A program made the position numbers and the translations under genes. From the UHGV virus genome UHGV-0305805: a stretch of 14,115 bases of DNA; one strand, given 5' to 3'. Source of the DNA: a virus. Below the pieces are notes generated by a model, which was given only the letters and a program-made list of their open reading frames with translations, was not told where the DNA came from and ran no database searches. Positions 1 to 12,551 of this stretch are shown one piece after another. The stretch's first letter is position 1, and every line of letters begins with the position of its first letter.

Positions 1-133
1 AACAGCATACAGAAGGGGCTTAAAAGCCCCTTTAGTGTTTTATGGGTGAAAAAATTATGAAGAGTATGGAAATCCGGTCATCGGAAATCACTACCAGCGG
101 AGCCGGTACGCTGACGGGCTACGTTGTTCGCTG
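1..133. repeat. Inverted repeat, left copy: exact reverse complement of 3003-3135
   Basis: Base-by-base comparison: 1-133 equals the reverse complement of 3003-3135, and identity stops at 134 (g versus t). It contains the palindromic hairpin GGGGCTTAAAAGCCCC (14-29) plus T-rich tract, and the first ~30 codons of the protease gene. Confidence 0.9.
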
Positions 134-614
134 GGATAAGCTTTCAGAACTGCTATGGGGGGAGTTTTACGAAAAATTCCAGCGGGGGGCGTTTACTGAG
201 TGGCTTGCGGCGGGTAATGACGTTCGCGGCCTGTATGAGCATGACCACAGCATGTTACTGGGGCGCACCCGTTCCGGCACGCTGAAACTGGAAGAGGACG
301 AAACAGGGTTACGCTTTGAACTGACCCCACCGGATACCAGTACAGGGCGCGACGTTATCGAACTGGTTAAGCGTGGGGACATCTCGGGGATGAGCTTTGG
401 CTTTCGCTCCCGTAAGGATGTATGGGATACCACAACAGATCCATGCGTGCGCACCGTGCTGGTGGCGGAACTGTACGAAATTACCGTTACATCGGTACCG
501 GCTTACCCCGATTCCGGCGTGGAGCTGGCCCGCCGTTCCCTGTATGAGCAGCACCCCGAAAAAATGCCGCGTGCGGATAATCGCCGCTGGTGGGTGGATT
601 TAGCGGGGGTGTGA
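42..614 (+). CDS. Prohead maturation protease, HK97 / S78 family
   Basis: 190-aa ORF with the conserved histidine context LYEHDHSMLLGRT and serine context DISGMSFGF typical of this protease family. Stop overlaps the portal start region. A likelier start is ATG at 57, preceded by GGGTGA. Confidence 0.85.
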   Translation: MGEKIMKSMEIRSSEITTSGAGTLTGYVVRWDKLSELLWGEFYEKFQRGAFTEWLAAGNDVRGLYEHDHSMLLGRTRSGTLKLEEDETGLRFELTPPDTSTGRDVIELVKRGDISGMSFGFRSRKDVWDTTTDPCVRTVLVAELYEITVTSVPAYPDSGVELARRSLYEQHPEKMPRADNRRWWVDLAGV

Positions 615-615
615 T

Positions 616-1827
616 ATGTGGCCTTTCAGAAGAAAAAAAGAGCAGCGCAGCATGACGCTGGATGAATTTATGGCGCTGGCTGGCACATCGAACACGGGGG
701 CGGGTGAGTACGTATCATCGGGGACAGCGGAATCACTGCCCGCCGTCATGAACGCCGTGACGGTCATCTCTGAGGCGGTGGCTACCATGCCGTGTTACCT
801 GTACCTGGTACGCAATGAGAAGGGGAAGGAGGCCCGCGAGTGGCTTGATTCTCATCCGGTCGATCACATCCTCAACGAGCGCCCGAACGCATGGCAAACC
901 CCCTACCAGTTTAAGCGAATGATGATCCGCCACTGCCTGTTAAACGGTAATGCTTATGCGGTGATTCAGTGGGGGCGTGATGGTTTTCCGGCGGCTTTAC
1001 ATCCTTACCCGCCGCAGTCGGTGAACGTGGAGCAGACAGGCGAACACAACTGGCGCTACTGCATCACTGACGCCTACACCGGAAACACCCGCAACTATTT
1101 ACCGTGGGAAGTACTTCACCTTCGTTACTCCACGGATGACGGCTTTATGGGGCGCTCACCTGTAACCATCTGCCGCGAATCGCTGGGGCTTGGGCTGGCC
1201 CAACAACGCCACGGCGCGAGCGTGATGCGTGATGGCATGATGGCGGCAGGGGTTATCACGTCAGGCGAATGGCTGGACGGCGTGAAGGGCAAACAGGCAT
1301 TAGCCGCACTGGAACGCTACAAAGGGGCCAGAAACGCCGGAAAAACGCCCATCCTTGAAGGGGGTATGAGCTATCAGCAGCTGGGCATGAGTAATCAGGA
1401 TGCTGAATGGCTGGCCTCCCGTCGCTTCACCATTGAAGACATCGCCCGAATGTTCAACGTCTCGCCGATTTTTTTGCAGGAATACAGCAACAGCACCTAC
1501 AGCAATTTCAGCGAGGCAAGCCGCGCATTTCTCACCATGACGATGCGCCCGTGGCTGGCGAACTTTGAGCAGCAGATAAAAAACGCCCTGCTGGTGGCCT
1601 CGCCTGTACCTGGTATCCGGTATCAGGTGGAGTTTGACAGCGCGGACCTGTTACGGGCCACACCTGGCGAACGCTTTGCCACCTATGAGCGCGGCATCAA
1701 ATCCGGCGTTATGTGTCCGAACGAAGCCCGCGAACGTGAAGGTCTGTCACCGCGTGATGGTGGTGATGAGTTCAGCCAGGCATGGAAACAGGAAGTAAAA
1801 ATCAGCGAGGGAGAAAAACCGGAATGA
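616..1827 (+). CDS. Phage portal protein (HK97-family-like)
   Basis: 403-aa ORF immediately after the protease and followed by head-completion genes; size and position fit a portal. Its stop overlaps the next start (ATGA). Confidence 0.75.
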   Translation: MWPFRRKKEQRSMTLDEFMALAGTSNTGAGEYVSSGTAESLPAVMNAVTVISEAVATMPCYLYLVRNEKGKEAREWLDSHPVDHILNERPNAWQTPYQFKRMMIRHCLLNGNAYAVIQWGRDGFPAALHPYPPQSVNVEQTGEHNWRYCITDAYTGNTRNYLPWEVLHLRYSTDDGFMGRSPVTICRESLGLGLAQQRHGASVMRDGMMAAGVITSGEWLDGVKGKQALAALERYKGARNAGKTPILEGGMSYQQLGMSNQDAEWLASRRFTIEDIARMFNVSPIFLQEYSNSTYSNFSEASRAFLTMTMRPWLANFEQQIKNALLVASPVPGIRYQVEFDSADLLRATPGERFATYERGIKSGVMCPNEAREREGLSPRDGGDEFSQAWKQEVKISEGEKPE

Positions 1828-2162
1828 ACATAGGGCGACTGCGTGACAGGATAACGATTCAGACCCTGAAACAGACCAGGGATATAACCGGCGAAATACT
1901 CGAAACGTGGGAGGACGGTCACACACTCTGGGCAAGCGTGAACATGGTCAGCAGCAAGGAGGCCATTTCATCGGGCGCAGAGCTGGCGATTGGTACCGTA
2001 AGGATCTGGATACGGTACCGGAAGGACATCAACGCCACCAGCCGGATAAAGGTCAGTACGGGGCCGCTGGCGGGGCGTGTACTGAATATCATCGGGCAGC
2101 CGCTGCCGGATGCCGCCAGGACACGCCTTGAAATTCTTTGTCGTGAGGGCGCGGAAAAATGA
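1824..2162 (+). CDS. Head closure / head-tail joining protein
   Basis: About 112 aa starting MNIGRLRDRITIQ at an ATGA overlap with the portal stop; contains an IRYRKDI-type motif common in head-tail joining proteins. The ORF track extends it to 1782. Confidence 0.6.
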   Translation: MNIGRLRDRITIQTLKQTRDITGEILETWEDGHTLWASVNMVSSKEAISSGAELAIGTVRIWIRYRKDINATSRIKVSTGPLAGRVLNIIGQPLPDAARTRLEILCREGAEK

Positions 2163-2455
2163 CAGAAGAACTTATCACCCTGGAAGAAGTGAAACTCCAT
2201 TGCCGCATCGATGGCGACGATGAAGACCAGTTAATCAGCGGATACATTGCCGCATCGCTTGAGGCGTGCCAGATACACATAGGCAGGCGCTTTGATGACG
2301 GGCTGGAGTTCACGCCAGCCATAAAGATTGGCTGCATGATGTTTATCGCTCACCTGTATGAAAATCGCCAGATTGTCGCGGATAACGCAAAAACACGCGT
2401 ACCCATGACGATAGGCGCACTCTGGACGGCTTACCGTGATGTGGGGGTGTACTGA
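2159..2455 (+). CDS. Head-tail connector (gp6-like DNA-packaging / connector protein)
   Basis: 98 aa; N-terminal ITLEEVKLHCRIDGDDEDQLI resembles the conserved N-terminus of gp6-type connectors. Translationally coupled on both sides. Confidence 0.65.
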   Translation: MTEELITLEEVKLHCRIDGDDEDQLISGYIAASLEACQIHIGRRFDDGLEFTPAIKIGCMMFIAHLYENRQIVADNAKTRVPMTIGALWTAYRDVGVY

Positions 2456-2895
2456 TGCCGTGGCAACCATTAAGACGATGCACAGAACCAGGCTGTAACA
2501 GGCGCGTTAAATCCGGCAAGTGTGAGGAGCACAGGCGGGCGGCATGGCGTGCAGAGGATGCCAGACGAGGACACCGCCGCGCGCGTGGATATTCCAGACA
2601 GTGGGACAAATACCGCGCCATGTATCTGAGTAAAAACCCGTTATGCGTGCGATGCCTTGAGAAGGGGATATATACGCCCGCCGTGGTGGTGGATCACATT
2701 ATCCCGATTAATGGCGGTGATGATGTTCTCTTCTGGCCCGAATGGAACCATCAACCATTGTGCCAGGCGTGTCATAACCAGAAAACGAAATGGCTTGATC
2801 CGGCAACAAAAAGCAAGCGTGCCGCAGGTGGATTTCGTGAAGAGGAAGAACGGGCCGCTAACCGCAATAACTGGATGTATGACGCTGATGAATGA
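2455..2895 (+). CDS. HNH endonuclease (packaging-associated)
   Basis: 146 aa with paired cysteine motifs (CTEPGCNRRV, CVRCLEKG) and the catalytic-type region VVDHIIPINGGDD...NHQPLCQACHNQKT. Confidence 0.85.
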   Translation: MPWQPLRRCTEPGCNRRVKSGKCEEHRRAAWRAEDARRGHRRARGYSRQWDKYRAMYLSKNPLCVRCLEKGIYTPAVVVDHIIPINGGDDVLFWPEWNHQPLCQACHNQKTKWLDPATKSKRAAGGFREEEERAANRNNWMYDADE

Positions 2896-3058
2896 GCGGG
2901 AACAAAACCGCCTTATCCGTGGACTTATAAGGCAGCGTGACGCATGGAAGACACAGGAAACAGGGCATAAAGATAAAGCGTCAGGACGCGCAGAACGCAT
3001 CACAGCGAACAACGTAGCCCGTCAGCGTACCGGCTCCGCTGGTAGTGATTTCCGATGA
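2888..3058 (+). CDS. Short ORF (56 aa) whose last 18 codons lie inside the inverted repeat; possible 5' remnant of a disrupted gene downstream of HNH
   Basis: ATG at 2888 overlaps the HNH stop. Codons 1-38 are unique sequence; the remainder is antisense of the protease 5' end supplied by the repeat. The longer 2657-3058 version in the ORF track overlaps HNH out of frame. Confidence 0.2.
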   Translation: MNEREQNRLIRGLIRQRDAWKTQETGHKDKASGRAERITANNVARQRTGSAGSDFR

Positions 3059-3135
3059 CCGGATTTCCATACTCTTCATAATTTTTTCACCCATAAAACA
3101 CTAAAGGGGCTTTTAAGCCCCTTCTGTATGCTGTT
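3003..3135. repeat. Inverted repeat, right copy: exact reverse complement of 1-133
   Basis: Same comparison as the left copy. The repeat ends one base short of the last capsid codon position (capsid stop is the complement of 3134-3136). Confidence 0.9.
3091..3121 (-). terminator. Intrinsic terminator after the capsid gene
   Basis: GC hairpin GGGGCTTTTAAGCCCC at 3106-3121; on the minus strand it is followed by TTTAGTGTTTT. A second copy sits at 14-39 inside the left repeat. Confidence 0.6.
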
Positions 3136-4291
3136 AATCGTCGTCCTGTGGCAGTTCCAGAATCTTGATCGCGTTCGAATCCACCACGCCACCGCCTAAA
3201 TATTTCTGCGTGAAAATTTTGATGAAGCCCGGCTCTGTGAGGTTGTCCGGTCTGGTGCGAACACCTGTTTCGTGATCAACAATGTAGTAACCGCGTTTGA
3301 AGTCACCCAGGGCAATAACGTTATCCGGCATAAACTCCAGATATTCGACCGGAAGGCCCAGTAACGTATCAGGATCACCCGCCTGTAAACGGTCGCGCCA
3401 GATGTAATCACCGTTCGCGTTCTTCACCTTCTGAAGTTTTGCCGCCGTCGTGGAGTTAACCACCCAGACCGCGTTTTTGCGGTATTTTTTACGTAATGCA
3501 AATTTCAGGTCGATCAGCGGGTCCGCAGATGTCCACGCCAGAGATTCGGAAGGTTTAATTACCTGCAACGTACCAAAATCACGCTCTTTGTCGTTCTTCT
3601 CTGCACGGGGTACGGATAAAAAGCCTTTTGCTTTTTTGTCACCGTCGCCCACAACCAGATCGCTTTCTTCGGTTTCCGTGAAGTTGTCGCCAATCTCGCC
3701 CGTCAGCCATGAAAGGATGTCCACATCGGAAAAATCCACGATTTCCTGCGTGGTGCGCGGGTACGCATAGACCGGATACAGCTTAATGCTCACCTCGTTA
3801 ATCTGCGGGGTGCTGGTCTGTTCGCGTGCCTTACCCTCTTCACCGTGGTTAACGGTCGCACCGCCAGCGGAAACAAGCTGCTTAAACTCGTTGCTGCTGA
3901 TTTTCTTCACGGTACAGATGCGGCGCATGGTGGATTCATCCGTCAGCATTCGCATGATTTCGGTGTTCAGTTCGGGGATAACGGTATAACCACCATCAGC
4001 GGGAACGCCTGTACTTAATGCGCGGGTTTCACCTGTCAGAATGTAGTGACGTAGTTCGGCTGGGTCAGTGGTCTGACTGCTTTTACCTGGCTTGCTGCGC
4101 TCTTCGTCTGCAATGGCTTCAAGGCGGGAAATGTCTTTATCGAGGGATTCAGCTTTAGCGCGTAATTCGTCAAATTTTGCGCCCTCAGCATCGTTAAGAC
4201 TGCGGTTTTCTTTTTCCGCGTTCTCCAGCATGTCGCGCATCTGATTTTTAATGGCGGTTTTCTGCTGGCGTAATTCGATTATTCTCGGCAT
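3134..4291 (-). CDS. Major capsid protein, HK97 fold, with an N-terminal coiled-coil (scaffold-like) domain
   Basis: 385 aa. The first ~70 residues are charged and heptad-like (ELRQQKTAIKNQMRDMLENAEKENRSL...), followed by a capsid-like body. Confidence 0.85.
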   Translation of the reverse strand: MPRIIELRQQKTAIKNQMRDMLENAEKENRSLNDAEGAKFDELRAKAESLDKDISRLEAIADEERSKPGKSSQTTDPAELRHYILTGETRALSTGVPADGGYTVIPELNTEIMRMLTDESTMRRICTVKKISSNEFKQLVSAGGATVNHGEEGKAREQTSTPQINEVSIKLYPVYAYPRTTQEIVDFSDVDILSWLTGEIGDNFTETEESDLVVGDGDKKAKGFLSVPRAEKNDKERDFGTLQVIKPSESLAWTSADPLIDLKFALRKKYRKNAVWVVNSTTAAKLQKVKNANGDYIWRDRLQAGDPDTLLGLPVEYLEFMPDNVIALGDFKRGYYIVDHETGVRTRPDNLTEPGFIKIFTQKYLGGGVVDSNAIKILELPQDDD

Positions 4292-4328
4292 AAAAAAAGT
4301 CCTGGGGTTAAGTAAGGAACTCCAGGAC
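4292..4328 (-). terminator. Leader hairpin plus U7 tract directly abutting the capsid start codon; the Shine-Dalgarno lies in the 3' arm
   Basis: Minus-strand RNA reads GUCCUGG...CCAGGAC then UUUUUUU then AUG. Stem 4299-4305 pairs with 4322-4328 and can extend by about 3 more pairs; AGGA is inside the 3' arm. Confidence 0.5.
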
Positions 4329-4503
4329 GCGGCAAAAACTCAACCGTTTTTCATAAGGAAATCAGCAATCGCACCGATCGTTTTCCCGCCTGGTAATGAA
4401 TATTGGCGAGAACATTAACAGGCGGAAAAGTGGCCCCAGCGTCCTGGCACCACGGGCGAGAATAATCATGATTCAGTTCGGGTAAAATATGCCGATCCGC
4501 TCA

Positions 4504-4532
4504 GTGAACAACGTGGAACAACCACGAACAAA
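4504..4532. promoter_or_regulatory. Phased GAACAA hexamers (x3, 10-bp spacing) including CAACGTGGAACAA; upstream of the capsid gene
   Basis: GAACAA at 4506, 4516 and 4526; the 13-mer CAACGTGGAACAA at 4509-4521. Confidence 0.4.
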
Positions 4533-4540
4533 TAATTTAC

Positions 4541-4572
4541 AAAACATGACAAAAAGCCGGATTGCTCCGGCT
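4541..4572 (-). terminator. Intrinsic terminator after the PerC-like gene
   Basis: Minus strand: AGCCGG-agcaat-CCGGCT followed by TTTTTGTCATGTTTT. Confidence 0.6.
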
Positions 4573-4578
4573 GTGTGA

Positions 4579-4860
4579 TTATCTGTCCTGGTAATTTCGC
4601 CATATTTCATTACCAGCACCATCCATACCCATTTCGGCATAAGTGCGATCGACCGCCTTTTTCAGGTCTCCGTAGTTATCCGGCGGCTCCGGTGGCCTCT
4701 GTGCCTTCCTGGAACATTCCAGCCGTCGCATCGTGATGTGATGCCGTTCCTTGTCTGTCTCCACCAGTTGCATGACTTCACCCCATCGCGCCGACGCTCT
4801 CCGGTAAAAGCCTTTCGCCTCCAGTTCTTCCGCTATGCGGTCATGTACCATCGTCCCCAC
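4579..4860 (-). CDS. Small regulator, PerC / ANR-like (tentative)
   Basis: 93 aa; the segment AEELEAKGFYRRASARWGEVM resembles the motif I recall for PerC/ANR-family small regulators. This is from memory and was not searched. Confidence 0.5.
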   Translation of the reverse strand: MGTMVHDRIAEELEAKGFYRRASARWGEVMQLVETDKERHHITMRRLECSRKAQRPPEPPDNYGDLKKAVDRTYAEMGMDGAGNEIWRNYQDR

Positions 4861-4863
4861 CCC

Positions 4864-5274
4864 TCAGAACGGAATATCATCACCGTAAGGGTCATCGCCT
4901 CCCGCTGGTGGCTGATTACCCTGTGTGCCTGTGGTCTTGCGTCGGCTCCCACCAGGACGTGCCGCACGGGCACTGATTACGCTGTCTGCAATAACCTGAT
5001 AACCCTGCCGCGTTTCCCCGTTCTGTCCGGTCCACTGGCTGACCTGCATCGTGCCGGATACGCTGGCAACGTCGCCTTTTTGATGTTTAGCCAGGAAGTC
5101 GGCCTGCTTACCAAATGCGATGACCGATAGCCATAACGTCGCCTGTCCATCCTGTGCCTGGCTGCATGGCAGCGATACCGCCATACGCGCCAGCGTCATC
5201 GGTGTACCCTTGCTGGTCTGTTTTACCTGCGGGTCGTCCACCAGCCGCCCGTAAGCTGCTATCTGTGCTGTCAT
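4864..5274 (-). CDS. ssb: Single-stranded DNA-binding protein
   Basis: 136 aa; Gly/Pro/Gln-rich linker and an acidic C-terminal tail ending DDIPF, the hallmark SSB tip. Confidence 0.8.
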   Translation of the reverse strand: MTAQIAAYGRLVDDPQVKQTSKGTPMTLARMAVSLPCSQAQDGQATLWLSVIAFGKQADFLAKHQKGDVASVSGTMQVSQWTGQNGETRQGYQVIADSVISARAARPGGSRRKTTGTQGNQPPAGGDDPYGDDIPF

Positions 5275-5549
5275 GATTCCACCTCTCCGGTTTTAACGTT
5301 GATGGTTGTTACCTGTTCCGCTTCGGCAATCTCCCGCTCTGTCAGCGTGGCAAAATTTGCCGCCGTCGTGGTCATGAATGCGCTTATCAGTTCGGGATGT
5401 GCTTTCGCGTATCCTTCCCCCGCGTGGCGGTCTATCGTTCTGATTGCCACCTTTAAAGCGTGCTCTGTCATGTCTAACGCGCGATATTTCGGTTCTGTTC
5501 TGTCTCTGCGTTTTTTGAGTGATTTATTAAATTTCCCTGAAGTGTGCAT
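5271..5549 (-). CDS. Hypothetical protein (92 aa)
   Basis: ORF between the origin iterons and ssb; its stop overlaps the ssb start (ATGA). Weak ribosome-binding site. Confidence 0.45.
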   Translation of the reverse strand: MHTSGKFNKSLKKRRDRTEPKYRALDMTEHALKVAIRTIDRHAGEGYAKAHPELISAFMTTTAANFATLTEREIAEAEQVTTINVKTGEVES

Positions 5550-5597
5550 ATTTATTTTTACCCCCTCGTTTAAAAAGTTTTGAGTTGTGCCTCCCCT

Positions 5598-5824
5598 TGT
5601 CTACCTTATCTACCTTAGTGGCCCTCATACCAGTAATGGCGCGGCTTTCAGCGGGGTAGAGTGCTTTTATCCACTATCTACCCCGTGTCTACCTCCCTGT
5701 CTGATTCAGGTAAAATCAGGTAGAGAGGGTAGATAGTGGGTAGACAGTAAAAAAAGGTTATCTACCTAACTTAATGCACTGAATTAAATGTATTTTTCTT
5801 TACTCAGGTAGACAGGGTAGACAG
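5598..5824. repeat. Iteron array, putative origin of replication (GGTAGACAG family, both orientations, with an AT-rich tract)
   Basis: At least 11 copies of GGTAGA[C/G/T]AG or its complement at 5598-5614, 5653-5661, 5674-5693, 5719-5747 (three in tandem), 5758-5766 and 5807-5824 (two in tandem). AT-rich stretch at 5770-5805. Immediately downstream of the primase gene. Confidence 0.75.
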
Positions 5825-5837
5825 CAATTACAAAAAA

Positions 5838-7592
5838 TTATAAAAACGCGTCGCACTCGTCTGTTGTTATTGCGTTAGTCTGCGTTACTCCCTTAACTTT
5901 CCGCGTAATATATTCATGTCCGTAAACTTTCGCGGCTGGCTTCATAGCCTTGCCAAAGTCATTTACGTTTAGCGGTTTGCTCCTGCCTGCGTACGCCATA
6001 AACGCCAGATAGACGCGGTAAAGGCTGTTTCTGGTCGTGTACTTCACTGAATCGCCACCGCCGCCCATCATCAGGCCGCGTGCTTCCTCCAGAAAATTCA
6101 GGAACTGGCAAAACTCAATAACCGGATCCGTCTGTTGCTTTATTGCCAGAGCTTCATCACCGTCACGCTGTTCCAGTAGTAAAGCCCGTGCCTTCTCAGG
6201 GTCGGTAAAGTTCGCCAGCAATCGGCGGATAATGACAGGGATTTCAGCCGCGATCTTTTCCGGTAGCTCCCTGTCTTTTTCGGCCTCACTGACGATATTG
6301 TCGAAACGGAAAATCACGCGACGACGTGCCACACCTCCGGCCCGTTCGGTGAATATCATCGGGTTATTGTTGGTCGCCAGCACCACCGCCCTGATTACCG
6401 CCGTGAAACGCTTTTCGTATTTCGGGTTAATTTCCACGGGGTCACCGCCCGTGATTTTCTTGATGCCCGTTCCTTCGCCTGTATATTTCGGCTGGTCAGC
6501 CAGGACGATAAGACGACTCCCGACAACCTGCGCACGTCCACCAGCATCATCAAGCGATGTCATTTCAGCGCTTACCGTGTTCTGTTTCCCTGCCAGAAGG
6601 CTGGCTATGTGTGTGAATGTACTTTTACCGCTCCCGCCGTCTCCGGTGGCCTCAATAAACATCTGCCAGTCGTACCGGTTCGCCATAATCATGTACAGCG
6701 CGGCACATATACGCATCATCTTGCGCGGGTCTTTTCCGGCTGCGTGCTCAAGCCATTTATGAAAGTTTGGCGCGTTATCGCGGATGTTCTCCCCTGGTGC
6801 TGGTGGCGTGTACTCAATGCCGTTGTGCGTGGTGATCCAGTTCTCCGGCGTGTGCGGGGAAAATTCCCCCGTTTTCAGGTCAAGCGCACCATTGGCGAAC
6901 GGCAACAAATCGCCGGACGGCTCGCCCATTGGTTCGGCAATAACTTTTAACGCTTCCACGGCGTTATTGATTACGCGCTTGCTGAAAGTGGCCCTGTGCT
7001 CTGAATAGATCGCCACCATTTCGCGGCTAAGTTCCATTGTGCTGACCGGACACCATACCCCGCCGCGCCATACGTGAACGATTTCACTTTCAGGATGTAC
7101 GCAAACGCCATCAAAGCGATCGGCAAGCAGCTGCGCGCGCTCACTGTCCGCCATCTGCGAAAGTTGCGCCTTTTGCTTTACCGGAAGCTCAATGACCAGA
7201 CCATCAGAAAGATTCTGGCGCTCACGGGCCAGATATTCGCGCCAGTTCTCCACCTTCTGACCGTGCATACCATCAGGGTAAAAATTTGCATCCTGTACGC
7301 CTGCCGCCGCCAGCTTCTGACCAATCGCCTTTATCATTACTGGCGCAAGATATCCGGCCCTGAATATGCGCACGGATTTTCTGCCTTCCGGCACAATTTG
7401 CAGCTTATCCAGTTCGGATAACTGCTGCTCCCCAAGCCACACAGGAGGCTCATTATCTCCGGCCATACGCGCGTCATGTTCCTGCCATTGTTTTGCGTGT
7501 GACCAGGCATCACTACCCGCAAAAATAATGACTTCTGTTTCTTTGTGTTTTATGCCGCGTGACTGCTGTTTTACGTTCGGTGCCAGTTTCAT
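5838..7592 (-). CDS. Primase / replicative helicase, P4-alpha-like
   Basis: 584 aa; Walker A GDGGSGKST and Walker B-like LIVLADQP in the C-terminal half, with a primase-like N-terminal half. Start overlaps the upstream ORF stop (ATGA). Confidence 0.85.
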   Translation of the reverse strand: MKLAPNVKQQSRGIKHKETEVIIFAGSDAWSHAKQWQEHDARMAGDNEPPVWLGEQQLSELDKLQIVPEGRKSVRIFRAGYLAPVMIKAIGQKLAAAGVQDANFYPDGMHGQKVENWREYLARERQNLSDGLVIELPVKQKAQLSQMADSERAQLLADRFDGVCVHPESEIVHVWRGGVWCPVSTMELSREMVAIYSEHRATFSKRVINNAVEALKVIAEPMGEPSGDLLPFANGALDLKTGEFSPHTPENWITTHNGIEYTPPAPGENIRDNAPNFHKWLEHAAGKDPRKMMRICAALYMIMANRYDWQMFIEATGDGGSGKSTFTHIASLLAGKQNTVSAEMTSLDDAGGRAQVVGSRLIVLADQPKYTGEGTGIKKITGGDPVEINPKYEKRFTAVIRAVVLATNNNPMIFTERAGGVARRRVIFRFDNIVSEAEKDRELPEKIAAEIPVIIRRLLANFTDPEKARALLLEQRDGDEALAIKQQTDPVIEFCQFLNFLEEARGLMMGGGGDSVKYTTRNSLYRVYLAFMAYAGRSKPLNVNDFGKAMKPAAKVYGHEYITRKVKGVTQTNAITTDECDAFL

Positions 7593-7888
7593 TTTTTACC
7601 CCTGAATCCGTTAATCATGGTTTTCAGCTTCTGGATGTTTGCCCGTGCCCTGGCGTTGCTGGTGGACACGTTATGCGGCGCGGTCTGTACCAGAGAAAAA
7701 TCACGCCGGAACTGATAAACAGGCATCACGCAATCATATTCGTAACCTTCACGGCGGTAGGTTACGCGCCGTTCTTCCACGCCCTTAATCATTACCGTGC
7801 CGCCGTACTGGTCGCGGTAAATATCGCCGCGCGTAAATTTAGGGTGAGTGTTGCCACTGGCAGTTAAGCCAGAATATTTAAGTTTCAT
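7589..7888 (-). CDS. Hypothetical protein (99 aa), translationally coupled to the primase
   Basis: ATG at 7886-7888; stop overlaps the primase start. Confidence 0.55.
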   Translation of the reverse strand: MKLKYSGLTASGNTHPKFTRGDIYRDQYGGTVMIKGVEERRVTYRREGYEYDCVMPVYQFRRDFSLVQTAPHNVSTSNARARANIQKLKTMINGFRGKK

Positions 7889-7893
7889 TATTT

Positions 7894-8127
7894 TTATTCT
7901 CCGGTGTGCTGTTCTTTATATCTGTCGTGCAATAGATCTATTTCTTGCAGTTCCATTATTACAGGCTCAAGAAGCGTTATTAATGCCGTGGCAATTCTTG
8001 ATTTTTGTTTGTCGCGTTCATTGTCGCCAAGTGTTTCAAGCCATATGCGCAATATTTCCAGCATGTTTTCACTGTGAGAAAGTGCAAGAAATGCGCGGTC
8101 TATTGTTTCGTGGTAAATATCACGCAT
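7894..8127 (-). CDS. Hypothetical protein (77 aa)
   Basis: ATG with GAGGA upstream; overlaps the stop of the upstream ORF by 8 nt. Confidence 0.55.
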   Translation of the reverse strand: MRDIYHETIDRAFLALSHSENMLEILRIWLETLGDNERDKQKSRIATALITLLEPVIMELQEIDLLHDRYKEQHTGE

Positions 8128-8353
8128 GGCTTACATCCTCAGGAAATTTTCTTCTATAACGCGCCTCTGCCACATATTCCGCATAATCGGCGGCGATATT
8201 CAGTACATCAAGCCCCGTTGATTTATATTCTCTCGTGGAAAGTAAGAAAAAAGCCGCTCTAATAAGTTCTGGCATTGACGAAAGCGCATCAGCCGCATCA
8301 TCAGGAACGCCGGAAAATTCCTGTTTCAGGGAATTAAAACGATCATCACGCAT
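8120..8353 (-). CDS. Hypothetical protein (77 aa)
   Basis: ATG with GGGGGG upstream; 8-nt overlap with the upstream ORF. Confidence 0.55.
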   Translation of the reverse strand: MRDDRFNSLKQEFSGVPDDAADALSSMPELIRAAFFLLSTREYKSTGLDVLNIAADYAEYVAEARYRRKFPEDVSHA

Positions 8354-8711
8354 GTTTACCCCCCTGAATGACCTGATAACCGCAACTGGTCAGCAACTCG
8401 ATAAATTCCGGCAGTGTGCCGAAACAGCAATCATCACGCAGCCGTTCACAGGATACCTCGACGCCGTTTTCGTAGTGACTCACCATACATCCGGTAAAAT
8501 GCAGATCATCATCGTGATGGCTCGTTGACGGCTTAATCAGTCGCGCACGTTCCGCCAGTTCCAGCAATGCTTCAACGCTTCCGGCAATTGCACCATCCGG
8601 CAGGTGATAATTACGCACTATGCGCCCGTTCTCCACATTGACCAGCAACTGCCCGGTAAATTTCTCATCAAACTGAATGCTGTTAAGGTCAGAAATTGAC
8701 AGATTATGCAT
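8346..8711 (-). CDS. Hypothetical protein (121 aa)
   Basis: ATG at 8709-8711 preceded by a perfect AGGAGG at about 6-nt spacing. The ORF track extends it to 8729. Confidence 0.6.
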   Translation of the reverse strand: MHNLSISDLNSIQFDEKFTGQLLVNVENGRIVRNYHLPDGAIAGSVEALLELAERARLIKPSTSHHDDDLHFTGCMVSHYENGVEVSCERLRDDCCFGTLPEFIELLTSCGYQVIQGGKHA

Positions 8712-8928
8712 GGTGCACCTCCTGCACATCAGCCATGATAATTTTTCCGGCCTTATCCAGTGCCTGATCGGCTTTTAGCTGCACAAATGCTAAATAATGG
8801 AAGATGCATTCTGATTCTCTGGCTGCGTGTTTATGCGCCCTGTCAGCAATAACAGAAATATCAATAAGCGCGTGCATCAGCGTAGTGAGCGCGGCGGCGG
8901 CTGCGTCCGGTGTGGTTTTATTGCACAT
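8704..8928 (-). CDS. Hypothetical protein (74 aa)
   Basis: ATG at 8926-8928 preceded by GGAGGGG. The ORF track extends it to 8982. Confidence 0.5.
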   Translation of the reverse strand: MCNKTTPDAAAAALTTLMHALIDISVIADRAHKHAARESECIFHYLAFVQLKADQALDKAGKIIMADVQEVHHA

Positions 8929-9148
8929 GTACCCCTCCGCATTTTTTTTCGTTAGAAATAAGCGTTCTTCTTTCCTGTTCATCGCTCAGGAATACGCAGA
9001 CCTCACCGCTAAGGCGTTTAAGTAAGCCGATGATTGCCCCTGATTCGCTGTCGGTCATCATGCCAGGGTAATCCTCTGCCAGTGCGCAAATAACTTCGAT
9101 TTGGTGGGCGCGTTCTGCTGCCTGTTGTAGTGTGATTTCCTGGCTCAT
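8918..9148 (-). CDS. Hypothetical protein (76 aa)
   Basis: ATG at 9146-9148 preceded by GGGGGTAGG; ATGA overlap with the upstream ORF. Confidence 0.55.
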   Translation of the reverse strand: MSQEITLQQAAERAHQIEVICALAEDYPGMMTDSESGAIIGLLKRLSGEVCVFLSDEQERRTLISNEKKCGGVHVQ

Positions 9149-9345
9149 AAGCCTACCCCCTGACGAATACGGGCAGCAAATACCATCACGCAGCCAGCCG
9201 GAGATTGCTGGCGTGCTTCCTGTTCGCTGGTGGCCTCAATGGTAATCACGCGCGGTTGTGCCGTGCTCAGGGCGATAAAACGCCAGATGTATTTATTCAG
9301 GTTGTGCGAGTCCCGCCCTTGCGGGTGTGTGGTATGATTTCTCAT
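9145..9345 (-). CDS. Hypothetical protein (66 aa), first gene of the leftward operon
   Basis: ATG at 9343-9345 preceded by GAGGTAG. It is the C-terminal part of a 340-aa ORF in the track that I regard as spurious upstream of this start. Confidence 0.5.
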   Translation of the reverse strand: MRNHTTHPQGRDSHNLNKYIWRFIALSTAQPRVITIEATSEQEARQQSPAGCVMVFAARIRQGVGL

Positions 9346-10413: not shown

Positions 10414-10686
10414 TATTGCCCCCCTTTCGTTTCTTAAAGAGTCATCAGGTGTCTTATTGTGTCGTATTGTTCCCGCTAGAGTGATGAATGGCAAATACTG
10501 AGGATGTATGATTTACAGAAAATGAAACAGTAAGAATAAAATCTTTTAAATTCATGTTAATACAAAGGCATAAAATATTGTTCCATGCCTTTTTTCTCGC
10601 TCTTTAAAGAGTGATTCGCTAGTGTACAAAAAACCAGTAACGCATTAAAAATCAGCCACTTATAAATCCGTACGCTTTTTCGCCTC

Positions 10687-10730
10687 TTGTTCGTAGTTGT
10701 TCCACATTGTTGCTCATTGTTGCACGTTGT
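10687..10730. promoter_or_regulatory. Phased TTGTT[C/G] hexamers (x4, exactly 10-bp spacing) ending in the complement of CAACGTGCAACAA
   Basis: TTGTTC at 10687 and 10697, TTGTTG at 10707 and 10717; the 13-mer at 10717-10729. Located between the integrase stop and alpA, in opposite orientation to the other three clusters. Confidence 0.4.
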
Positions 10731-10778
10731 ATCTGTTCGCATATCCAGTATGCGCATACTGAAAAAACACGAAAAAAA

Positions 10779-12008
10779 TTATTTTCTTCTGGCTACGGGT
10801 AGCGTGGTTACGTTTTCATGTGTTCCCGCCAGTATCCCTAACCGCTCCGTCCACATATCCAGCGCATTGCGTTTCGCATCCAGATAACGGGAATGATTAT
10901 AAACTCGCTGCATTCCTGGCATCTGGTGGCCTGTAAGCTGCTCCACGACATGCGGATCAACGCCTAAATCGTTCAGCATGGTTGTAAAGGTGCGCCGGAT
11001 GTCATGCAGTGACCAGTGAGGGTGATTAAGCCTCCTGTACGCTAATCTTCCATACTGCGATACGCTGGCCTCCTGTTTCACTTCCCCCAGCAATAAGCCC
11101 GTGTGCCTGTTCTGCTCCACCAGCTGCGTGACGAACGGCAGGATCGCTTCCGGTATGGGCCGGAATATTGCGACCTTCGTTTTGCTGTGCTCCTTCGGAA
11201 CGGTCCATAGCATTTCCGTAAAATCCCACTCCCCGATCTCCGATAACCTCAGTTCTACCGTTCTGGCTCCGAAGACAATCAGGAGGCGGATTAACGCGAC
11301 GTAGTAAGGGGAGAATATTTTTTTGTCCAGTGCCTGCAATAATTCGCCAAGTTCTTTGTTACTTAAGACACGTTCGCTTATATCCGGTTTTTTCCCAACG
11401 TCCGCAACGTTCAGATCGTCCAGAACGTTGCTGATTGCATAGCGCCGCCTACGGCAGAACTTAAGCGCCTGTTTGCACGCCTGTAGCACGAATCCGGCAG
11501 TAACAGGCGTTCGCTTTGCCACCTGGTCAAAACAGGCCAGCCAGTGCCGTAGCTCGCATTTATCCAGCGGCATAGCACCAATCTGCTGTATTACGTGATT
11601 ATTAAGTCGCCTTTTCAGGGCGATATAATCCACGCGGTTTTCCTTTACGTAATACTCAAGCCAGTAGGTGAGCGCATCGCCAACCGTTACGGGCTTTAAC
11701 GCTTCCTGTACGGTGTAATTCATCTCATGACGTGGATTTTTCCCCTCAGCCAGCCATGTGCGACACTGTGCGGCTTTTTCCCTGGCTGCTTTCAGGCTCA
11801 GATCAGGATAACTTCCCAGCTTAATGCGTTCGGGTCGTGTCTCCCTTCCCGTTCCGGCCCTGTATGTGAAATACCAGGTCAATTTCCCTGATGTTAAATA
11901 TTTCACGCTCAGGTTTCCGCCATCACTATAAAACGTGTTTTTCTCCGCTGGCTTACCATGAAGTTTCCTTAGCAAGGTATCGCTCAGTTTGTTCATTGCT
12001 CTGCTCAC
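10779..12008 (-). CDS. int: Tyrosine recombinase / integrase, P4-like
   Basis: 409 aa with catalytic-region motifs ARTVELR, HDIRRTF and a C-terminal YNHSRYLD tyrosine context. Start could be GTG at 12008 or ATG at 11996. Confidence 0.9.
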   Translation of the reverse strand: MSRAMNKLSDTLLRKLHGKPAEKNTFYSDGGNLSVKYLTSGKLTWYFTYRAGTGRETRPERIKLGSYPDLSLKAAREKAAQCRTWLAEGKNPRHEMNYTVQEALKPVTVGDALTYWLEYYVKENRVDYIALKRRLNNHVIQQIGAMPLDKCELRHWLACFDQVAKRTPVTAGFVLQACKQALKFCRRRRYAISNVLDDLNVADVGKKPDISERVLSNKELGELLQALDKKIFSPYYVALIRLLIVFGARTVELRLSEIGEWDFTEMLWTVPKEHSKTKVAIFRPIPEAILPFVTQLVEQNRHTGLLLGEVKQEASVSQYGRLAYRRLNHPHWSLHDIRRTFTTMLNDLGVDPHVVEQLTGHQMPGMQRVYNHSRYLDAKRNALDMWTERLGILAGTHENVTTLPVARRK

Positions 12009-12056: not shown

Positions 12057-12266
12057 ATCGTTGCACAAAGGGCTACAACGTGAAACAAGCTGGAACAAGG
12101 AAAATCACAAATCTGTTGATAATCAAAAACATAATGCACAGCCTGAAACATTATGAAACAGCAAAAAACACTAAATGATAAAATGCTGTTATATATAACT
12201 TATTTCGCATAACACATTGATTTAATTAAATAATTAACACCGCAAAAAGTGCCAAAAATCGCAAAA

Positions 12267-12289: not shown

Positions 12290-12551
12290 TTCGGTGCACT
12301 GTATGAAACAACGTGGAACAAATAGACACAAGAAATATACAGGCGGATCATCTTTCCAGGGGGAAGCACACCAATTCATGAGGGGCGTTAATGTCGATAT
12401 GGGGATCCCCACCTACCGGAATTTTTTTCCGGTTAAACGTTAATCAGGCTGGTGGGCTTTACCTGTTCGGTAGGTGTTATGATTATCGTAATACCTTTCC
12501 CCCAATGGGGTAAAAGCATCAACCGTAACGAAAGTCGTTATGGTTGCCACT

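What the first reader, a model, noticed from the sequence alone, without database searches (positions are those of the whole stretch)
4292..4328. Terminator-like hairpin with U7 ending exactly at the capsid start codon, Shine-Dalgarno inside the stem
On the capsid-coding strand, a hairpin of 7-11 bp is followed by seven U and then AUG, and the AGGA sits in the 3' arm. Any transcript from upstream would be terminated or translationally masked before the capsid gene. This suggests capsid expression needs antitermination or structure remodelling, possibly by a helper or the upstream PerC-like protein, in addition to the terminator at 4541-4572.
Basis: seen in the sequence. Interest (0 to 1): 0.55.

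Follow-up and report, generated by a model that had tools for sequence, protein, structure and literature searches.

The report
Capsid-operon leader hairpin of a phage satellite
The hairpin and U7 run in front of the capsid gene are real and are the last stem-loop of a conserved, undescribed, roughly 160-nt structured RNA leader of a capsid-forming phage satellite (cf-PICI) of E. coli; the leader can fold in two mutually exclusive ways and probably gates transcription and translation of the satellite's packaging genes.

Summary
On the minus strand, GUCCUGG (4328-4322) pairs with CCAGGAC (4305-4299), with three further inner pairs (-12.7 kcal/mol). U7 (4298-4292) and the capsid AUG (4291) follow directly, and AGGA lies in the 3' arm. 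Such a stem plus T7 occurred in 1 of 300 shuffles.

The element is an E. coli cf-PICI. In intact genomes the capsid gene opens a nine-gene packaging operon; the window itself is rearranged.

The hairpin (HP3) ends a leader that follows a conserved promoter-like site: HP1 (invariant GACG loop), HP2 (covarying stem), then HP3. It has no Rfam match and I found no description of it.

All 27 representative leaders have an HP3 holding the Shine-Dalgarno sequence. Only the window's lineage and one sister lineage add the U-run.

The 5' arm of HP3 is also complementary to HP1 (9 bp here). This pairing shows compensatory changes across three leader types. It would remove the terminator and free the ribosome site, but the predicted default fold is off.

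A helper-phage requirement and a PerC role are not. Termination itself and the trigger are untested.

The parts
4579..4860 (-). PerC-family gene, the last gene before the leader in this lineage
   Evidence: Pfam PerC 4.6e-43; annotated as a PerC family regulator in FORC_069. It is not conserved upstream of the leader in other lineages.
4550..4572 (-). Intrinsic terminator of perC (AGCCGGAGCAAUCCGGCU followed by UUUUUG)
   Evidence: Terminator scan; hairpin -12.0 kcal/mol. A terminator-like hairpin plus T-run ends the upstream gene in the W-type lineages; O157 relatives carry two copies flanking an inserted gene.
4506..4545 (-). Conserved upstream block: TTTTGTAAATTA plus three TTGTTC boxes at exact 10-bp phase (4531-4526, 4521-4516, 4511-4506). 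Probable activator (AlpA) binding array, about -55 to -90 from the predicted start.
   Evidence: It is the only part of the intergenic region that stays alignable by DNA in E. coli cf-PICIs whose capsids are only 64-75% identical. The block and the first box are conserved in 24 of 27 representatives; the later boxes degenerate. TTGTTCN4TTGTTC (2 mismatches or fewer) occurs 12 times in the window against 1.5 expected. The other copies lie next to the att junction and in the int-alpA spacer. The assignment to AlpA is inference.
4459..4486 (-). Predicted sigma-70 promoter of the packaging operon: -35 TTTACC (4486-4481), 16-nt spacer, -10 TATTCT (4464-4459); predicted start about 4453-4451
   Evidence: The position is conserved in almost all of the 27 representatives: TTTAC(C/T/A), 16 nt, TA..TT, ending 6-8 nt before HP1. 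The tool reports TTTACA-16-TATGTT as the only promoter-like site in the equivalent region of L003. In L069 and L072 the upstream gene is divergent, so the operon must have its own promoter. In the window the match is only 8 of 12 and is not listed by the scan. The start site is inferred, not mapped.
4430..4453 (-). HP1: GUGGU-G-CCAG-GACG-CUGG-G-GCCAC, the 5'-terminal hairpin. It contains CCAGGACGC (4447-4439), the alternative partner of the HP3 5' arm.
   Evidence: 99.3% of cells paired and 5 of 8 pairs with compensatory changes across 17 leaders. The GACG loop is invariant.
4382..4429 (-). HP2: long hairpin UUUUCCGCCUG...CAGGCGGGAAAA
   Evidence: It is in the MFE fold. Every lineage has a long stem here with a different sequence, at least 8 different stem sequences.
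4331..4381 (-). Linker with a small hairpin (4379-4360) and a pyrimidine-rich, U-rich stretch; poorly conserved
   Evidence: MFE fold. It diverges strongly between the window and L068. Its 4-codon mini-ORF (AUG 4354) is absent in L068, by direct reading.
4322..4330 (-). HP3 5' arm GCGUCCUGG. It can pair either with the 3' arm (7 bp) or with HP1 segment 4447-4439 (9 bp).
   Evidence: The longest Watson-Crick duplex between HP1 and the rest of the leader falls here in 26 of 27 representatives. Covariation counts are; type C confirms them.
4299..4328 (-). HP3, the reported hairpin: stem 4328-4322 with 4305-4299, loop 4321-4306, Shine-Dalgarno AGGA 4303-4300 in the 3' arm
   Evidence: Of 11 distinct natural variants, 9 keep -11 kcal/mol or better. 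L068 (capsid 69% identical) has a 10-bp stem with an unrelated loop.
4292..4298 (-). U7 tract abutting the start codon (U8 in some relatives)
   Evidence: It is always 7 or 8 uninterrupted U in the window lineage and in L068. It is absent in the type B and C leaders.
3134..4291 (-). HK97-type major capsid gene, first gene of the packaging operon in intact islands
   Evidence: Pfam Phage_capsid 1.5e-61; gene order in FORC_069.
3095..3124 (-). Terminator-like hairpin just after the capsid stop codon (GAAGGGGCUUAAAAGCCCCUUU followed by AGUGUUUUAU). A possible partial terminator inside the operon.
   Evidence: Terminator scan; -13.8 kcal/mol. In FORC_069 it lies in the 40-nt gap between the capsid and protease genes.

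Best explanation
The hairpin (HP3) is the expression platform of a conserved, roughly 160-nt structured 5' leader of the cf-PICI packaging operon (capsid, protease, portal, head closure, connector, HNH, a hypothetical gene, TerS, TerL).

Transcription most likely starts at the operon's own weak sigma-70 promoter (-35 at 4486-4481, -10 at 4464-4459). That promoter sits downstream of three phased TTGTTC boxes, which are probably bound by the island's activator AlpA.

The nascent RNA folds as HP1, then HP2, then HP3. HP3 buries the Shine-Dalgarno sequence. In this lineage a U7/U8 run follows it directly, so HP3 also has the anatomy of an intrinsic terminator. In the default (minimum-energy) fold, many transcripts should therefore stop at 4292-4298, and read-through transcripts should be poorly translated.

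The 5' arm of HP3 (GCGUCCUGG) can instead pair with CCAGGACGC inside HP1. That 9-bp helix excludes both HP1 and HP3, so it would abolish the terminator and free the ribosome-binding site together. The leader therefore looks like a two-state switch that sets how much packaging-operon product is made.

Shown here: the anatomy; conservation of HP3 and the U-run within the lineage; structure-preserving variation; covariation in HP1, HP2 and the alternative helix; and the predicted energetics.

Inferred: the promoter and start site, AlpA binding to the boxes, actual termination, and actual switching. The trigger is unknown. Candidates are an RNA chaperone (host ProQ or Hfq; one lineage carries a ProQ/FinO gene two genes upstream), 5' processing of HP1, or a product of the island itself.
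For: Anatomy and the chance test.

Natural context: the capsid gene is first in a same-strand nine-gene operon, and the window is rearranged.

The whole leader is unusually structured: -71.3 kcal/mol against -50.2 +/- 3.9 for shuffles, z = -5.4.

Conservation. The hairpin and U7/U8 are kept in 11 distinct variants of the window lineage. Nine are at -11 kcal/mol or better. These include a CC->UU double change that turns the A.C mismatch into A-U (-14.6 kcal/mol). L068 has an unrelated loop, two extra pairs and U8.

Family. 27 representatives (below 97% identity) share promoter, HP1, HP2 and HP3, with the Shine-Dalgarno sequence in the HP3 3' arm, 1-8 nt before the AUG.

Covariation. HP1 is 99.3% paired with 5 compensatory pairs. 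HP2 has at least 8 different stem sequences.

Alternative helix. It is the longest HP1-to-leader duplex in 26 of 27 representatives. The core GACG:CGUC is invariant. Pair 17-141 is U-A (13 sequences), C-G (3) or G-C (1); pair 12-146 is A-U or G-C; pair 19-139 is A-U or G-C. All 11 type C leaders carry the matched GACGGGA/UCCCGUC.

Energetics. The full leader prefers HP1 plus HP3, by 8 to 13 kcal/mol in the window depending on the 3' end chosen. RNA truncated after the HP3 5' arm prefers the alternative helix.

Own promoter. TTGTTC arrays at the att arms, the alpA promoter region and here. AlpA activates PICI genes and its own promoter (PMC6092414).
Against: No transcript ends or starts were available, so termination at U7 and the start site are predictions.

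The hairpin's loop is long for an efficient intrinsic terminator (16 nt, or 8 nt with 3 inner pairs), and the tool's terminator scan did not report it.

Most lineages (types B and C) have HP3 without any U-run. Termination is therefore not the conserved function of this position; masking of the Shine-Dalgarno sequence is.

The covariation for the alternative helix rests on only three leader types, about two independent events, so relatedness inflates the counts.

The alternative fold is 8-13 kcal/mol less stable in the window. The estimated barrier from the HP1 state is 17-22 kcal/mol, from a nested-path heuristic that cannot model toehold invasion through the loop.

cf-PICI capsids are reported to be made spontaneously at appreciable levels without a helper, so the block is leaky or easily relieved.

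The match between TTGTTC boxes and AlpA alleles across lineages was inconclusive.
Confidence: 0.55

Rival explanations
1. HP3 is only a translational operator or mRNA-stability element. It masks the Shine-Dalgarno sequence, as the equivalent hairpin does in all other lineages. The U7 run is just an A/U-rich spacer or S1-binding enhancer between AGGA and the AUG, and RNA polymerase reads through it efficiently.
For: The conserved feature across all 27 representatives is a hairpin holding the Shine-Dalgarno sequence just before the AUG. The U-run is present in only two lineages. The loop is long for a terminator and the site is not picked up by the scan. The AGGA-to-AUG spacing of 8-9 nt is ideal for initiation.
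Against: The U-run is always uninterrupted, 7 or 8 long, and starts immediately after the stem. It is kept in L068 although the loop and the linker have diverged completely. The hairpin energy equals that of the neighbouring perC terminator, which the scan does detect. The stem plus T7 combination is very unlikely by chance.
Confidence: 0.25
2. HP3 plus U7 is a constitutive, partial terminator with no switch. It either insulates the packaging operon from read-through out of perC, or it ends a roughly 160-nt leader RNA that has a job of its own, for example an Hfq/ProQ-bound small RNA. The HP1-HP3 complementarity would be a relic of an inverted duplication.
For: The terminated product would have typical small-RNA features: a 5' hairpin, a U-rich single strand before a terminator hairpin, and a U7 tail. 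The default fold is strongly favoured and the barrier to the alternative is high. A precedent from my own knowledge, not checked here: the short RNA ending at tR' downstream of the lambdoid late promoter acts as a small RNA in Shiga-toxin phages.
Against: The complementarity is kept with compensatory changes in three leader types. It also holds in lineages with no terminator at all, where no discrete small RNA would be made. perC already has its own terminator 230 nt upstream.
Confidence: 0.12
3. The terminator is overcome by processive antitermination: a protein (AlpA, a Q- or N-like factor of the island or of a helper) or a put-like cis RNA (HP1-HP2) makes RNA polymerase resistant. The hairpin after the capsid gene would be read through in the same way.
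For: The architecture resembles late operons that work this way: a promoter, a promoter-proximal terminator just before the first ORF, and a second terminator-like hairpin inside the operon at 3124-3103. In P. aeruginosa a protein called AlpA is such an antiterminator, with terminators immediately upstream of the first genes (PMC7969949). HP1 and HP2 are two adjacent promoter-proximal stem-loops, as in HK022 put; that comparison is from my own knowledge and was not tested.
Against: The island's AlpA is a 62-aa Phage_AlpA/Xis-type protein. In a PDB search it matches an 'AlpA family phage regulatory protein' (8c3t, 2e-6) but not the P. aeruginosa AlpA chain at E of 1 or below. The P. aeruginosa protein has a different layout: an N-terminal ring and a C-terminal helix-turn-helix (PMC9371919). 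The TTGTTC boxes lie upstream of the -35, not between the -35 and -10. No Q or N family appeared among the ORFs scanned. A helper is not needed for capsid production. Processive antitermination would not explain the conserved HP1-HP3 complementarity or the lineages without terminators.
Confidence: 0.1
4. It is a chance inverted repeat next to a T-run, with no function.
For: The z-score of the local 66-nt fold is only -2.05.
Against: It occurs in 1 of 300 shuffles. It is conserved with structure-preserving variation, and in a sister lineage with a different loop. It is embedded in a leader with z = -5.4.
Confidence: 0.02

Closest known systems
Terminator/antiterminator leaders, such as the expression platforms of 'ON' riboswitches (e.g. 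the pbuE adenine riboswitch) and dual transcription-translation platforms
   Same: There are two mutually exclusive helices. A long-range closing helix uses the 5' arm of a terminator hairpin, and a local hairpin (HP1) competes for the other strand. The same hairpin carries both the terminator and the Shine-Dalgarno mask. Across lineages the platform is transcriptional plus translational (this window, L068) or translational only (types B and C), as in riboswitch families.
   Different: There is no conserved junction or pocket: HP2 is hypervariable. There is no Rfam match and no conserved leader peptide. The input signal is unknown and more likely a macromolecule than a metabolite.
Lambdoid late-operon control (PR', the tR' terminator, the 6S-type short RNA, Q antitermination)
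   Same: A morphogenetic operon is preceded by a promoter and a promoter-proximal intrinsic terminator. The default product would be a short leader RNA.
   Different: No Q gene or Q-binding element was found. The terminator abuts the start codon and contains the ribosome-binding site. A built-in alternative RNA pairing exists.
P. aeruginosa AlpA processive antiterminator (alpBCDE, PA0807 operons)
   Same: The regulator has the same name, and intrinsic terminators lie just upstream of the first ORF of the target operons (PMC7969949).
   Different: The island's AlpA is a 62-aa Xis/Vis-type protein with no detectable similarity to the P. aeruginosa protein and a different domain layout. The putative boxes are upstream of the -35.
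Satellite P4 immunity (CI RNA with seqA/seqB/seqC) and the P1/P7 C4 antisense RNA
   Same: A phage satellite uses repeated complementary sequence blocks within a leader transcript to control premature termination and translation of downstream genes. This comparison rests on my own knowledge of P4.
   Different: In P4 the pairing causes termination; here it would prevent it. No C4/CI-type Rfam hit was found. The controlled genes are structural, not immunity or replication genes.
Capsid-forming PICIs (EcCIEDL933 family)
   Same: The gene content and order match: int, alpA, primase, SSB, PerC, HK97-type capsid, protease, portal, connectors, HNH, TerS, TerL. There are no tail or lysis genes. O157 islands carry the same leader and hairpin.
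   Different: The published descriptions I could search say nothing about a promoter, leader or terminator of the packaging operon.

Membership tests
Intrinsic (Rho-independent) terminator | G+C-rich stem of at least 5-7 bp | tested here: met
   7 perfect bp (5 G-C) plus 3 inner pairs; -12.7 kcal/mol, equal to the neighbouring perC terminator.
Intrinsic (Rho-independent) terminator | Short loop (typically 3-8 nt) | tested here: inconclusive
   The loop is 16 nt, or 8 nt if the 3 inner pairs form across a 1x1 mismatch. The site is not reported by the consensus scan. A natural variant has a continuous 11-bp stem with an 8-nt loop.
Intrinsic (Rho-independent) terminator | U-tract of about 7-8 nt immediately 3' of the stem | tested here: met
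   U7 at 4298-4292, with U8 in relatives; never interrupted.
Intrinsic (Rho-independent) terminator | RNA 3' ends in the U-tract, in vivo or in vitro | not testable with these tools
   No transcript data were found.
Shine-Dalgarno-sequestering translational operator | Ribosome-binding site inside a stable stem, close to the start codon | tested here: met
   AGGA at 4303-4300 is in the 3' arm, 8 nt before the AUG. The equivalent HP3 holds GGA or GAG in its 3' arm in all 27 representatives.
Shine-Dalgarno-sequestering translational operator | Effect of the stem on translation | not testable with these tools
   This needs translational fusions with stem and compensatory mutants.
Attenuator / riboswitch-type two-state leader | An alternative helix that overlaps one arm of the terminator or sequestor | tested here: met
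   CCAGGACGC (4447-4439) pairs with GCGUCCUGG (4330-4322), 9 bp. The same register holds in 26 of 27 representatives.
Attenuator / riboswitch-type two-state leader | Covariation supporting the alternative helix | tested here: inconclusive
   The core is 100% paired and three flanking pairs show double changes. Type C confirms this. But only three leader types exist, about two independent events.
Attenuator / riboswitch-type two-state leader | A conserved ligand-binding core or a leader peptide | tested here: not met
   HP2 is hypervariable. There is no Rfam hit at the gathering threshold or at E of 10 or below. The 4-codon ORF is not conserved in L068.
Q / P. aeruginosa AlpA-type processive antitermination | An antiterminator protein of a known family encoded nearby | tested here: not met
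   The island's AlpA belongs to Pfam Phage_AlpA. It shows no match to the P. aeruginosa AlpA chain in the PDB at E of 1 or below, and the architectures differ. No Q or N family appeared in the ORFs scanned. Not every small ORF was scanned.
Q / P. aeruginosa AlpA-type processive antitermination | [quoted passage not shown] | tested here: not met
   The repeated boxes lie upstream of the -35. The pause element was not examined.
P4 CI RNA / C4 antisense RNA | A match to the Rfam C4 model | tested here: not met
   No hit in the whole window or in 4250-4600 at E of 10 or below.
Capsid-forming PICI (the element as a whole) | int, alpA and a replication module plus a complete HK97-type head and packaging module, without tail or lysis genes, about 10-16 kb, at a dedicated att site | tested here: met
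   Pfam assignments. The FORC_069 island lies in tqsA, at locus positions 1255-16980. The leader is near-identical to that of O157 islands.

The most novel reading that the evidence does not exclude
The roughly 160-nt leader (HP1, HP2, HP3) is a new family of cis-regulatory RNA switch specific to capsid-forming phage satellites. A 5'-terminal hairpin with an invariant GACG loop and the ribosome-site hairpin swap strands, so that one event turns on both read-through and translation of the whole capsid and packaging operon. The switch would be flipped by a specific macromolecular cue, such as a ProQ/FinO-type chaperone, a satellite product or a phage- or stress-derived signal. It would then be the checkpoint that decides when a cell commits to making tail-less satellite capsids.
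Probability: 0.35. Interest if true: 0.75.

Novelty: new variant of a known kind. Interest (0 to 1): 0.6.

Why it matters
cf-PICIs build their own capsids and release tail-less particles that borrow tails from other phages. When and how strongly the capsid operon is expressed decides both the cost to the host and how often such particles arise. So far only AlpA is known as an upstream activator, and nothing has been published on control at the operon itself.

A conserved leader with a built-in off state and a defined alternative pairing gives a concrete, mutable control point of fewer than 170 nt. It suggests how spontaneous low-level production and full induction could be separated. It also adds an unannotated structured RNA family, present in at least three leader types in enterobacterial satellites, to the list of candidates for curation.

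For engineering cf-PICIs as delivery vehicles, the hairpin is an obvious knob for capsid yield.

Tried and rejected
(1) The genome-contig scan with a capsid alignment returned only 5 loci because the chosen peptide patterns were N-terminal.

(2) A 14-mer from HP1 (GCCAGGACGCTGGG) was too unspecific in viral contigs and gave mostly unrelated G+C-rich phages.

(3) The metagenome scan with an HP2-based pattern found only near-identical E. coli-type leaders plus L068-type ones, so it added no diversity for the window lineage.

(4) Rfam gave nothing at the gathering threshold for the window, and only noise at E of 10 or below for 4250-4600.

(5) In the phage database the window leader has no match, and the type B leader matches only three unannotated records.

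(6) I first took TATTTT (4489-4484) as the -10 element, with the third TTGTTC box as the -35. Comparing the 27 lineages moved the promoter 25 nt downstream, to TTTACC-16-TATTCT. The apparent 10-bp pairing between 4466-4457 and capsid codons 2-5 seen therefore lies in promoter DNA, not in RNA, and was dropped.

(7) I considered and dropped the idea that AlpA here is an antiterminator like P. aeruginosa AlpA. The two proteins share a name, not detectable similarity or architecture.

(8) The test of whether box sequence follows the AlpA allele across lineages was inconclusive.

(9) I considered and rejected the TTGTTC array as replication iterons. The same block occurs with three different replication proteins (D5_N primase, DUF927, RepA helicase) but always with the capsid operon.

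(10) A cos/pac site was set aside without a test. From my own knowledge of HK97-type phages, cos is expected between the HNH and terS genes.

(11) A single-stranded DNA structure (an ssi-type signal) is less likely. G.U pairs occur on the sense strand, and a promoter and a ribosome-binding site are built into the structure.

(12) A literature search for transcript data on EcCIEDL933 found nothing usable.

(13) An RfaH ops element or a lambda boxA was looked for by eye in the leaders and not seen. This was not a formal test.
Full report
**1. The observation**

On the minus strand the window reads 5'-GC GUCCUGG A GUU CCUUACUU AAC C CCAGGAC UUUUUUU AUG CCG AGA-3'.
- The stem is 4328-4322 paired with 4305-4299: 7 perfect pairs, 5 of them G-C. 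Three more pairs are possible inside it, across a 1x1 mismatch.
- The U7 run is 4298-4292.
- The AUG at 4291-4289 opens a 385-aa ORF (3134..4291) that is a full-length Pfam Phage_capsid match (1.5e-61).
- AGGA (4303-4300) lies in the 3' arm, 8 nt from the AUG.

The hairpin alone folds at -12.7 kcal/mol. The perC terminator folds at -12.0 and the hairpin after the capsid gene at -13.8. A perfect stem of at least 7 bp with a loop of 20 nt or less, directly followed by T7, occurs once in the window and in 1 of 300 dinucleotide shuffles.

The consensus terminator scan misses it, probably because it accepts only loops of 3-8 nt and this stem is interrupted.

**2. What the element is, and a caveat about the window**

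The ORFs are those of a capsid-forming phage-inducible chromosomal island (cf-PICI):
- integrase, a 62-aa Phage_AlpA protein, a D5_N primase, SSB and PerC;
- an HK97-type capsid, S78 protease, portal, head-completion protein, connector and HNH.

832 of 5426 complete E. coli genomes have a match to the query spanning ssb, perC and the capsid start. 353 of them cover at least 80% of it.

In E. coli FORC_069 the identical island sits in tqsA. There the gene order on one strand is int ... primase, ssb, perC, capsid, protease, portal, head closure, connector, HNH, a hypothetical gene, terS, terL.

The window is not collinear with this:
- 1-3009 equals the protease-to-HNH segment in the opposite orientation to 2999-9180;
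- 12184-12192 joins the two island ends, an attP-type junction as in the excised circle;
- 13979/13980 is another fold-back.

The finding lies well inside a collinear stretch and is not affected. But the capsid gene is not a lone, convergently arranged gene. In intact islands it is the first gene of the packaging operon, so the hairpin stands at the gate of that whole operon.

**3. What lies upstream**

perC ends with its own terminator, at 4572-4555. After it comes a block, TTTTGTAAATTA plus three TTGTTC boxes spaced exactly 10 bp apart (4545-4506). This block is the only DNA-alignable part of the intergenic region in E. coli cf-PICIs whose capsids are only 64-75% identical. That holds even where the upstream genes are a ProQ/FinO protein and a small unknown protein rather than PerC.

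Phased TTGTTC pairs are enriched in the window (12 against 1.5 expected). The other copies sit next to the att junction and in the int-alpA spacer. That is where sites for a Xis/Vis-type protein such as AlpA would be expected. AlpA is known to activate PICI genes and its own promoter (PMC6092414). Assigning the boxes to AlpA is inference, and a test against AlpA alleles was inconclusive.

Lining up 27 representative leaders at HP1 shows a promoter-like site at a fixed position: TTTAC(C/T/A), 16 nt, TA..TT, ending 6-8 nt before HP1. In the window this is TTTACC (4486-4481) and TATTCT (4464-4459). In L003 the tool reports TTTACA-16-TATGTT as the only promoter-like site. In two lineages the upstream gene is divergent, so the operon must have its own promoter. 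The predicted start is about 4453-4451, which gives a leader of about 160 nt. This is inferred, not mapped.

**4. The leader is a conserved structured RNA**

The window leader folds far better than shuffles (z = -5.4). I collected relatives in three ways:
- through the capsid protein;
- through the upstream block;
- through HP1 variants.

At below 97% identity, 27 representatives share three hairpins.
- HP1 is a 5'-terminal hairpin with an invariant GACG loop. 99.3% of cells are paired and 5 of 8 pairs show compensatory changes.
- HP2 is a long stem whose sequence differs in nearly every lineage, with at least 8 versions.
- HP3 ends 1-8 nt before the AUG and has the Shine-Dalgarno-like GGA/GAG in its 3' arm.

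There are three leader types: W (this window and L068), B (the majority) and C (L069-like, 11 distinct leaders). No Rfam family matches. The records that contain the leader carry no annotation over it. The cf-PICI and PICI papers I could search do not mention a promoter, leader or terminator here.

**5. The reported hairpin within this frame**

It is HP3 of the W type. Among 11 distinct W-type variants, the U-run is always 7 or 8 and 9 variants keep -11 kcal/mol or better.
- A CC->UU double change converts the internal A.C mismatch to A-U and G-C to G.U, giving a continuous 11-bp stem (-14.6 kcal/mol).
- Another variant trades one pair for another (-13.2 kcal/mol).
- Two variants are weakened (-6.1 and -8.7 kcal/mol); one of them also destroys AGGA.

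L068, whose capsid is 69% identical, has the same arms extended by two pairs, a completely different loop and linker, and U8. So the stem and the U-run are under constraint in this lineage.

In types B and C the positionally equivalent HP3 uses other arms (GGUUUC.CGU / ACG.GAAACC) and has no U-run. Masking of the ribosome-binding site is therefore the family-wide property. Terminator anatomy is an addition in the W type.

**6. An alternative pairing**

The 5' arm of HP3, GCGUCCUGG (4330-4322), is perfectly complementary to CCAGGACGC (4447-4439) inside HP1. By my estimate, a 9-mer match between a 24-nt segment and the rest of the leader is expected about 0.008 times by chance.

- In 26 of 27 representatives the longest Watson-Crick duplex between HP1 and the rest of the leader falls on the HP3 5' arm, ending 26-31 nt before the AUG.
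- The core GACG:CGUC is invariant.
- The flanks change together: GACGC/GCGUC in W, GACGUGA/UCACGUC in B and GACGGGA/UCCCGUC in C.
- In type C the changed base in HP3 is a bulge in HP3 itself, so its change is not explained by HP3.

This helix excludes both HP1 and HP3. If it forms, there is no terminator and the ribosome-binding site is free.

The evidence comes from only about two independent events, so I rate it suggestive rather than proven.

**7. Energetics**

- For the full leader the predicted fold is HP1 + HP2 + HP3. Forcing the alternative helix costs 8 to 13 kcal/mol in the window, depending on the 3' end chosen, and 1 to 15 kcal/mol across lineages.
- For RNA that ends just after the HP3 5' arm, the alternative helix is the minimum-energy fold in the window and in 9 of 17 leaders in all.
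- A nested-path estimate of the barrier from the HP1 state is 17-22 kcal/mol. This heuristic cannot model invasion through the GACG loop.

Taken together, the default is off, and an aid such as a chaperone, 5' processing or a binding factor would be needed to turn it on efficiently. Which fold forms during transcription cannot be settled by computation.

**8. Mechanism proposed, and what is shown versus inferred**

Shown: anatomy, conservation, structure-preserving variation, the family architecture, complementarity with covariation, and predicted energies.

Inferred:
- transcription starts at the conserved promoter under AlpA control;
- HP3 plus U7 stops a share of transcripts and blocks initiation on the rest;
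- the HP1-HP3 strand swap relieves both.

The trigger is unknown. PerC is unlikely, because it is not conserved with the leader. A helper factor is unlikely to be required, because cf-PICI capsids are reported without a helper and with alpA overexpression alone. Candidates are host ProQ or Hfq (one lineage encodes a ProQ/FinO protein two genes upstream), processing of HP1, or an island product.

**9. Rivals**

(a) HP3 is a translational operator only, with U7 as a spacer. This is favoured by the absence of a U-run in most lineages and by the long loop. It is disfavoured by the strict conservation of U7/U8 next to the stem.

(b) HP3 is a constitutive partial terminator, an insulator or the end of a small RNA. 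This is possible for the W type, but it does not explain the conserved complementarity in lineages without a terminator.

(c) The terminator is overcome by processive antitermination. The island's AlpA shares only its name with the P. aeruginosa antiterminator: there is no match at E of 1 or below and the layout differs. No Q or N family was seen. This is not excluded for unknown factors.

(d) Chance is rejected.

**10. Comparison with known systems, and novelty**

The logic is that of terminator/antiterminator leaders and of riboswitch expression platforms, including the family-wide variation between transcriptional and translational platforms. The position recalls lambdoid PR'-tR'. The use of repeated complementary blocks in a satellite leader recalls P4 immunity, with the opposite sign.

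It is not a member of any of these families: there is no Rfam hit, no ligand core, no leader peptide, and no Q, N or P. aeruginosa-type AlpA. I class it as a new variant of a known kind, an undescribed leader family working by a familiar principle.

Interest is moderate to good. It gives a defined, testable control point for capsid production in a satellite family of current interest. But termination and switching are still predictions.

Noticed in passing
window 1-3009 versus 2999-9180; 12184-12192; 13979/13980: The window is not collinear with intact islands. Segment 1-3009 (protease to HNH) is inverted relative to 2999-9180, with 137 bp present twice in inverted orientation (1-137 and 2999-3135). 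Positions 12184-12192 join the two island ends (FORC_069 locus positions 1255 and 16980), as in an excised circular or concatemeric form. At 13979/13980 the sequence folds back on itself within terL. This looks like a chimeric assembly or amplification artefact, or DNA from packaged or replicating satellite.
   Followed up: partly
window 10687-10722 (+), 10761-10776 (-), 10457-10472 (+), 12083-12098 (-), 12306-12331 (-): Further arrays of TTGTTC-like boxes at 10-bp phase lie in the int-alpA spacer and on both sides of the att junction. This fits binding sites of the Xis/Vis-like AlpA protein for excision and autoregulation. The same boxes precede the capsid-operon promoter.
   Followed up: partly
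window 9157-9180: Relative to FORC_069 the window lacks about 430 bp of the Icd-like gene region (locus L001 4291-4723). The two flanks overlap by 24 bp, which suggests a deletion between direct repeats. FORC_069 itself has a fragmented Icd-like gene there.
   Followed up: no
L002 3320-3700 (O157 relatives), equivalent to window about 4575: O157-type islands carry a roughly 350-bp insertion between perC and the leader. It holds a 74-aa gene of unknown function and is flanked by two near-identical terminators (CAGCCGGAG(A/C)AATCCGGCTTTTT). Homologues of this small gene sit directly upstream of the leader in several other lineages (L050, L068, L070). The window lineage appears to have lost it by recombination between the duplicated terminators.
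   Followed up: partly
window 2116, 4299, 4322, 4441, 4585, 4952, 6500, 13409: The 7-mer CCAGGAC or its complement occurs 8 times against 1.15 expected; 0 of 200 shuffles reach 8. Three copies are explained by HP1 and HP3. One lies in the last codons of perC, and four are scattered in ssb, primase, head-closure and terL. The motif contains the Dcm site CCWGG. I have no explanation for the excess.
   Followed up: no
L154 (IMGVR_UViG_2681813004_000015), about 10797-11140: In one contig the upstream block, the promoter and the first half of HP1 (up to GCCAGGACG) are fused to a perC-like ORF instead of the leader and capsid gene. Recombination therefore seems to have occurred within HP1, and the promoter block can also drive other genes.
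   Followed up: no
L004 3201-3731: One E. coli cf-PICI lineage encodes a ProQ/FinO-family RNA chaperone two genes upstream of the structured leader, in the position PerC holds in the window. It is a candidate helper for the proposed strand swap.
   Followed up: no
L354, L355, L372, L391, L411 (type C leaders), about 60-100 nt upstream of HP1: Some type C islands replace the TTGTTC boxes with two CATG(C/A)TTACC-like repeats while keeping TGTAAAT. Two islands with the same AlpA allele had different box versions, so the link between boxes and AlpA is not settled.
   Followed up: partly
window 3095-3124 (-): A terminator-like hairpin with an interrupted U-run sits in the 40-nt gap between the capsid and protease genes in the intact arrangement. 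It may lower expression of downstream genes relative to the capsid gene. It also lies inside the 137-bp segment that is duplicated in inverted orientation at the window's rearrangement junction.
   Followed up: no
L007 and L006 (Symbiopectobacterium), about 50-90 nt upstream of the capsid ATG: A related capsid gene (66% identical) has a different leader with no HP1. That leader contains a canonical terminator (GCGGCGGUUA...UAACCGCUGC followed by U6) about 50 nt before the start codon. A terminator in the capsid leader has therefore arisen in another lineage as well.
   Followed up: no
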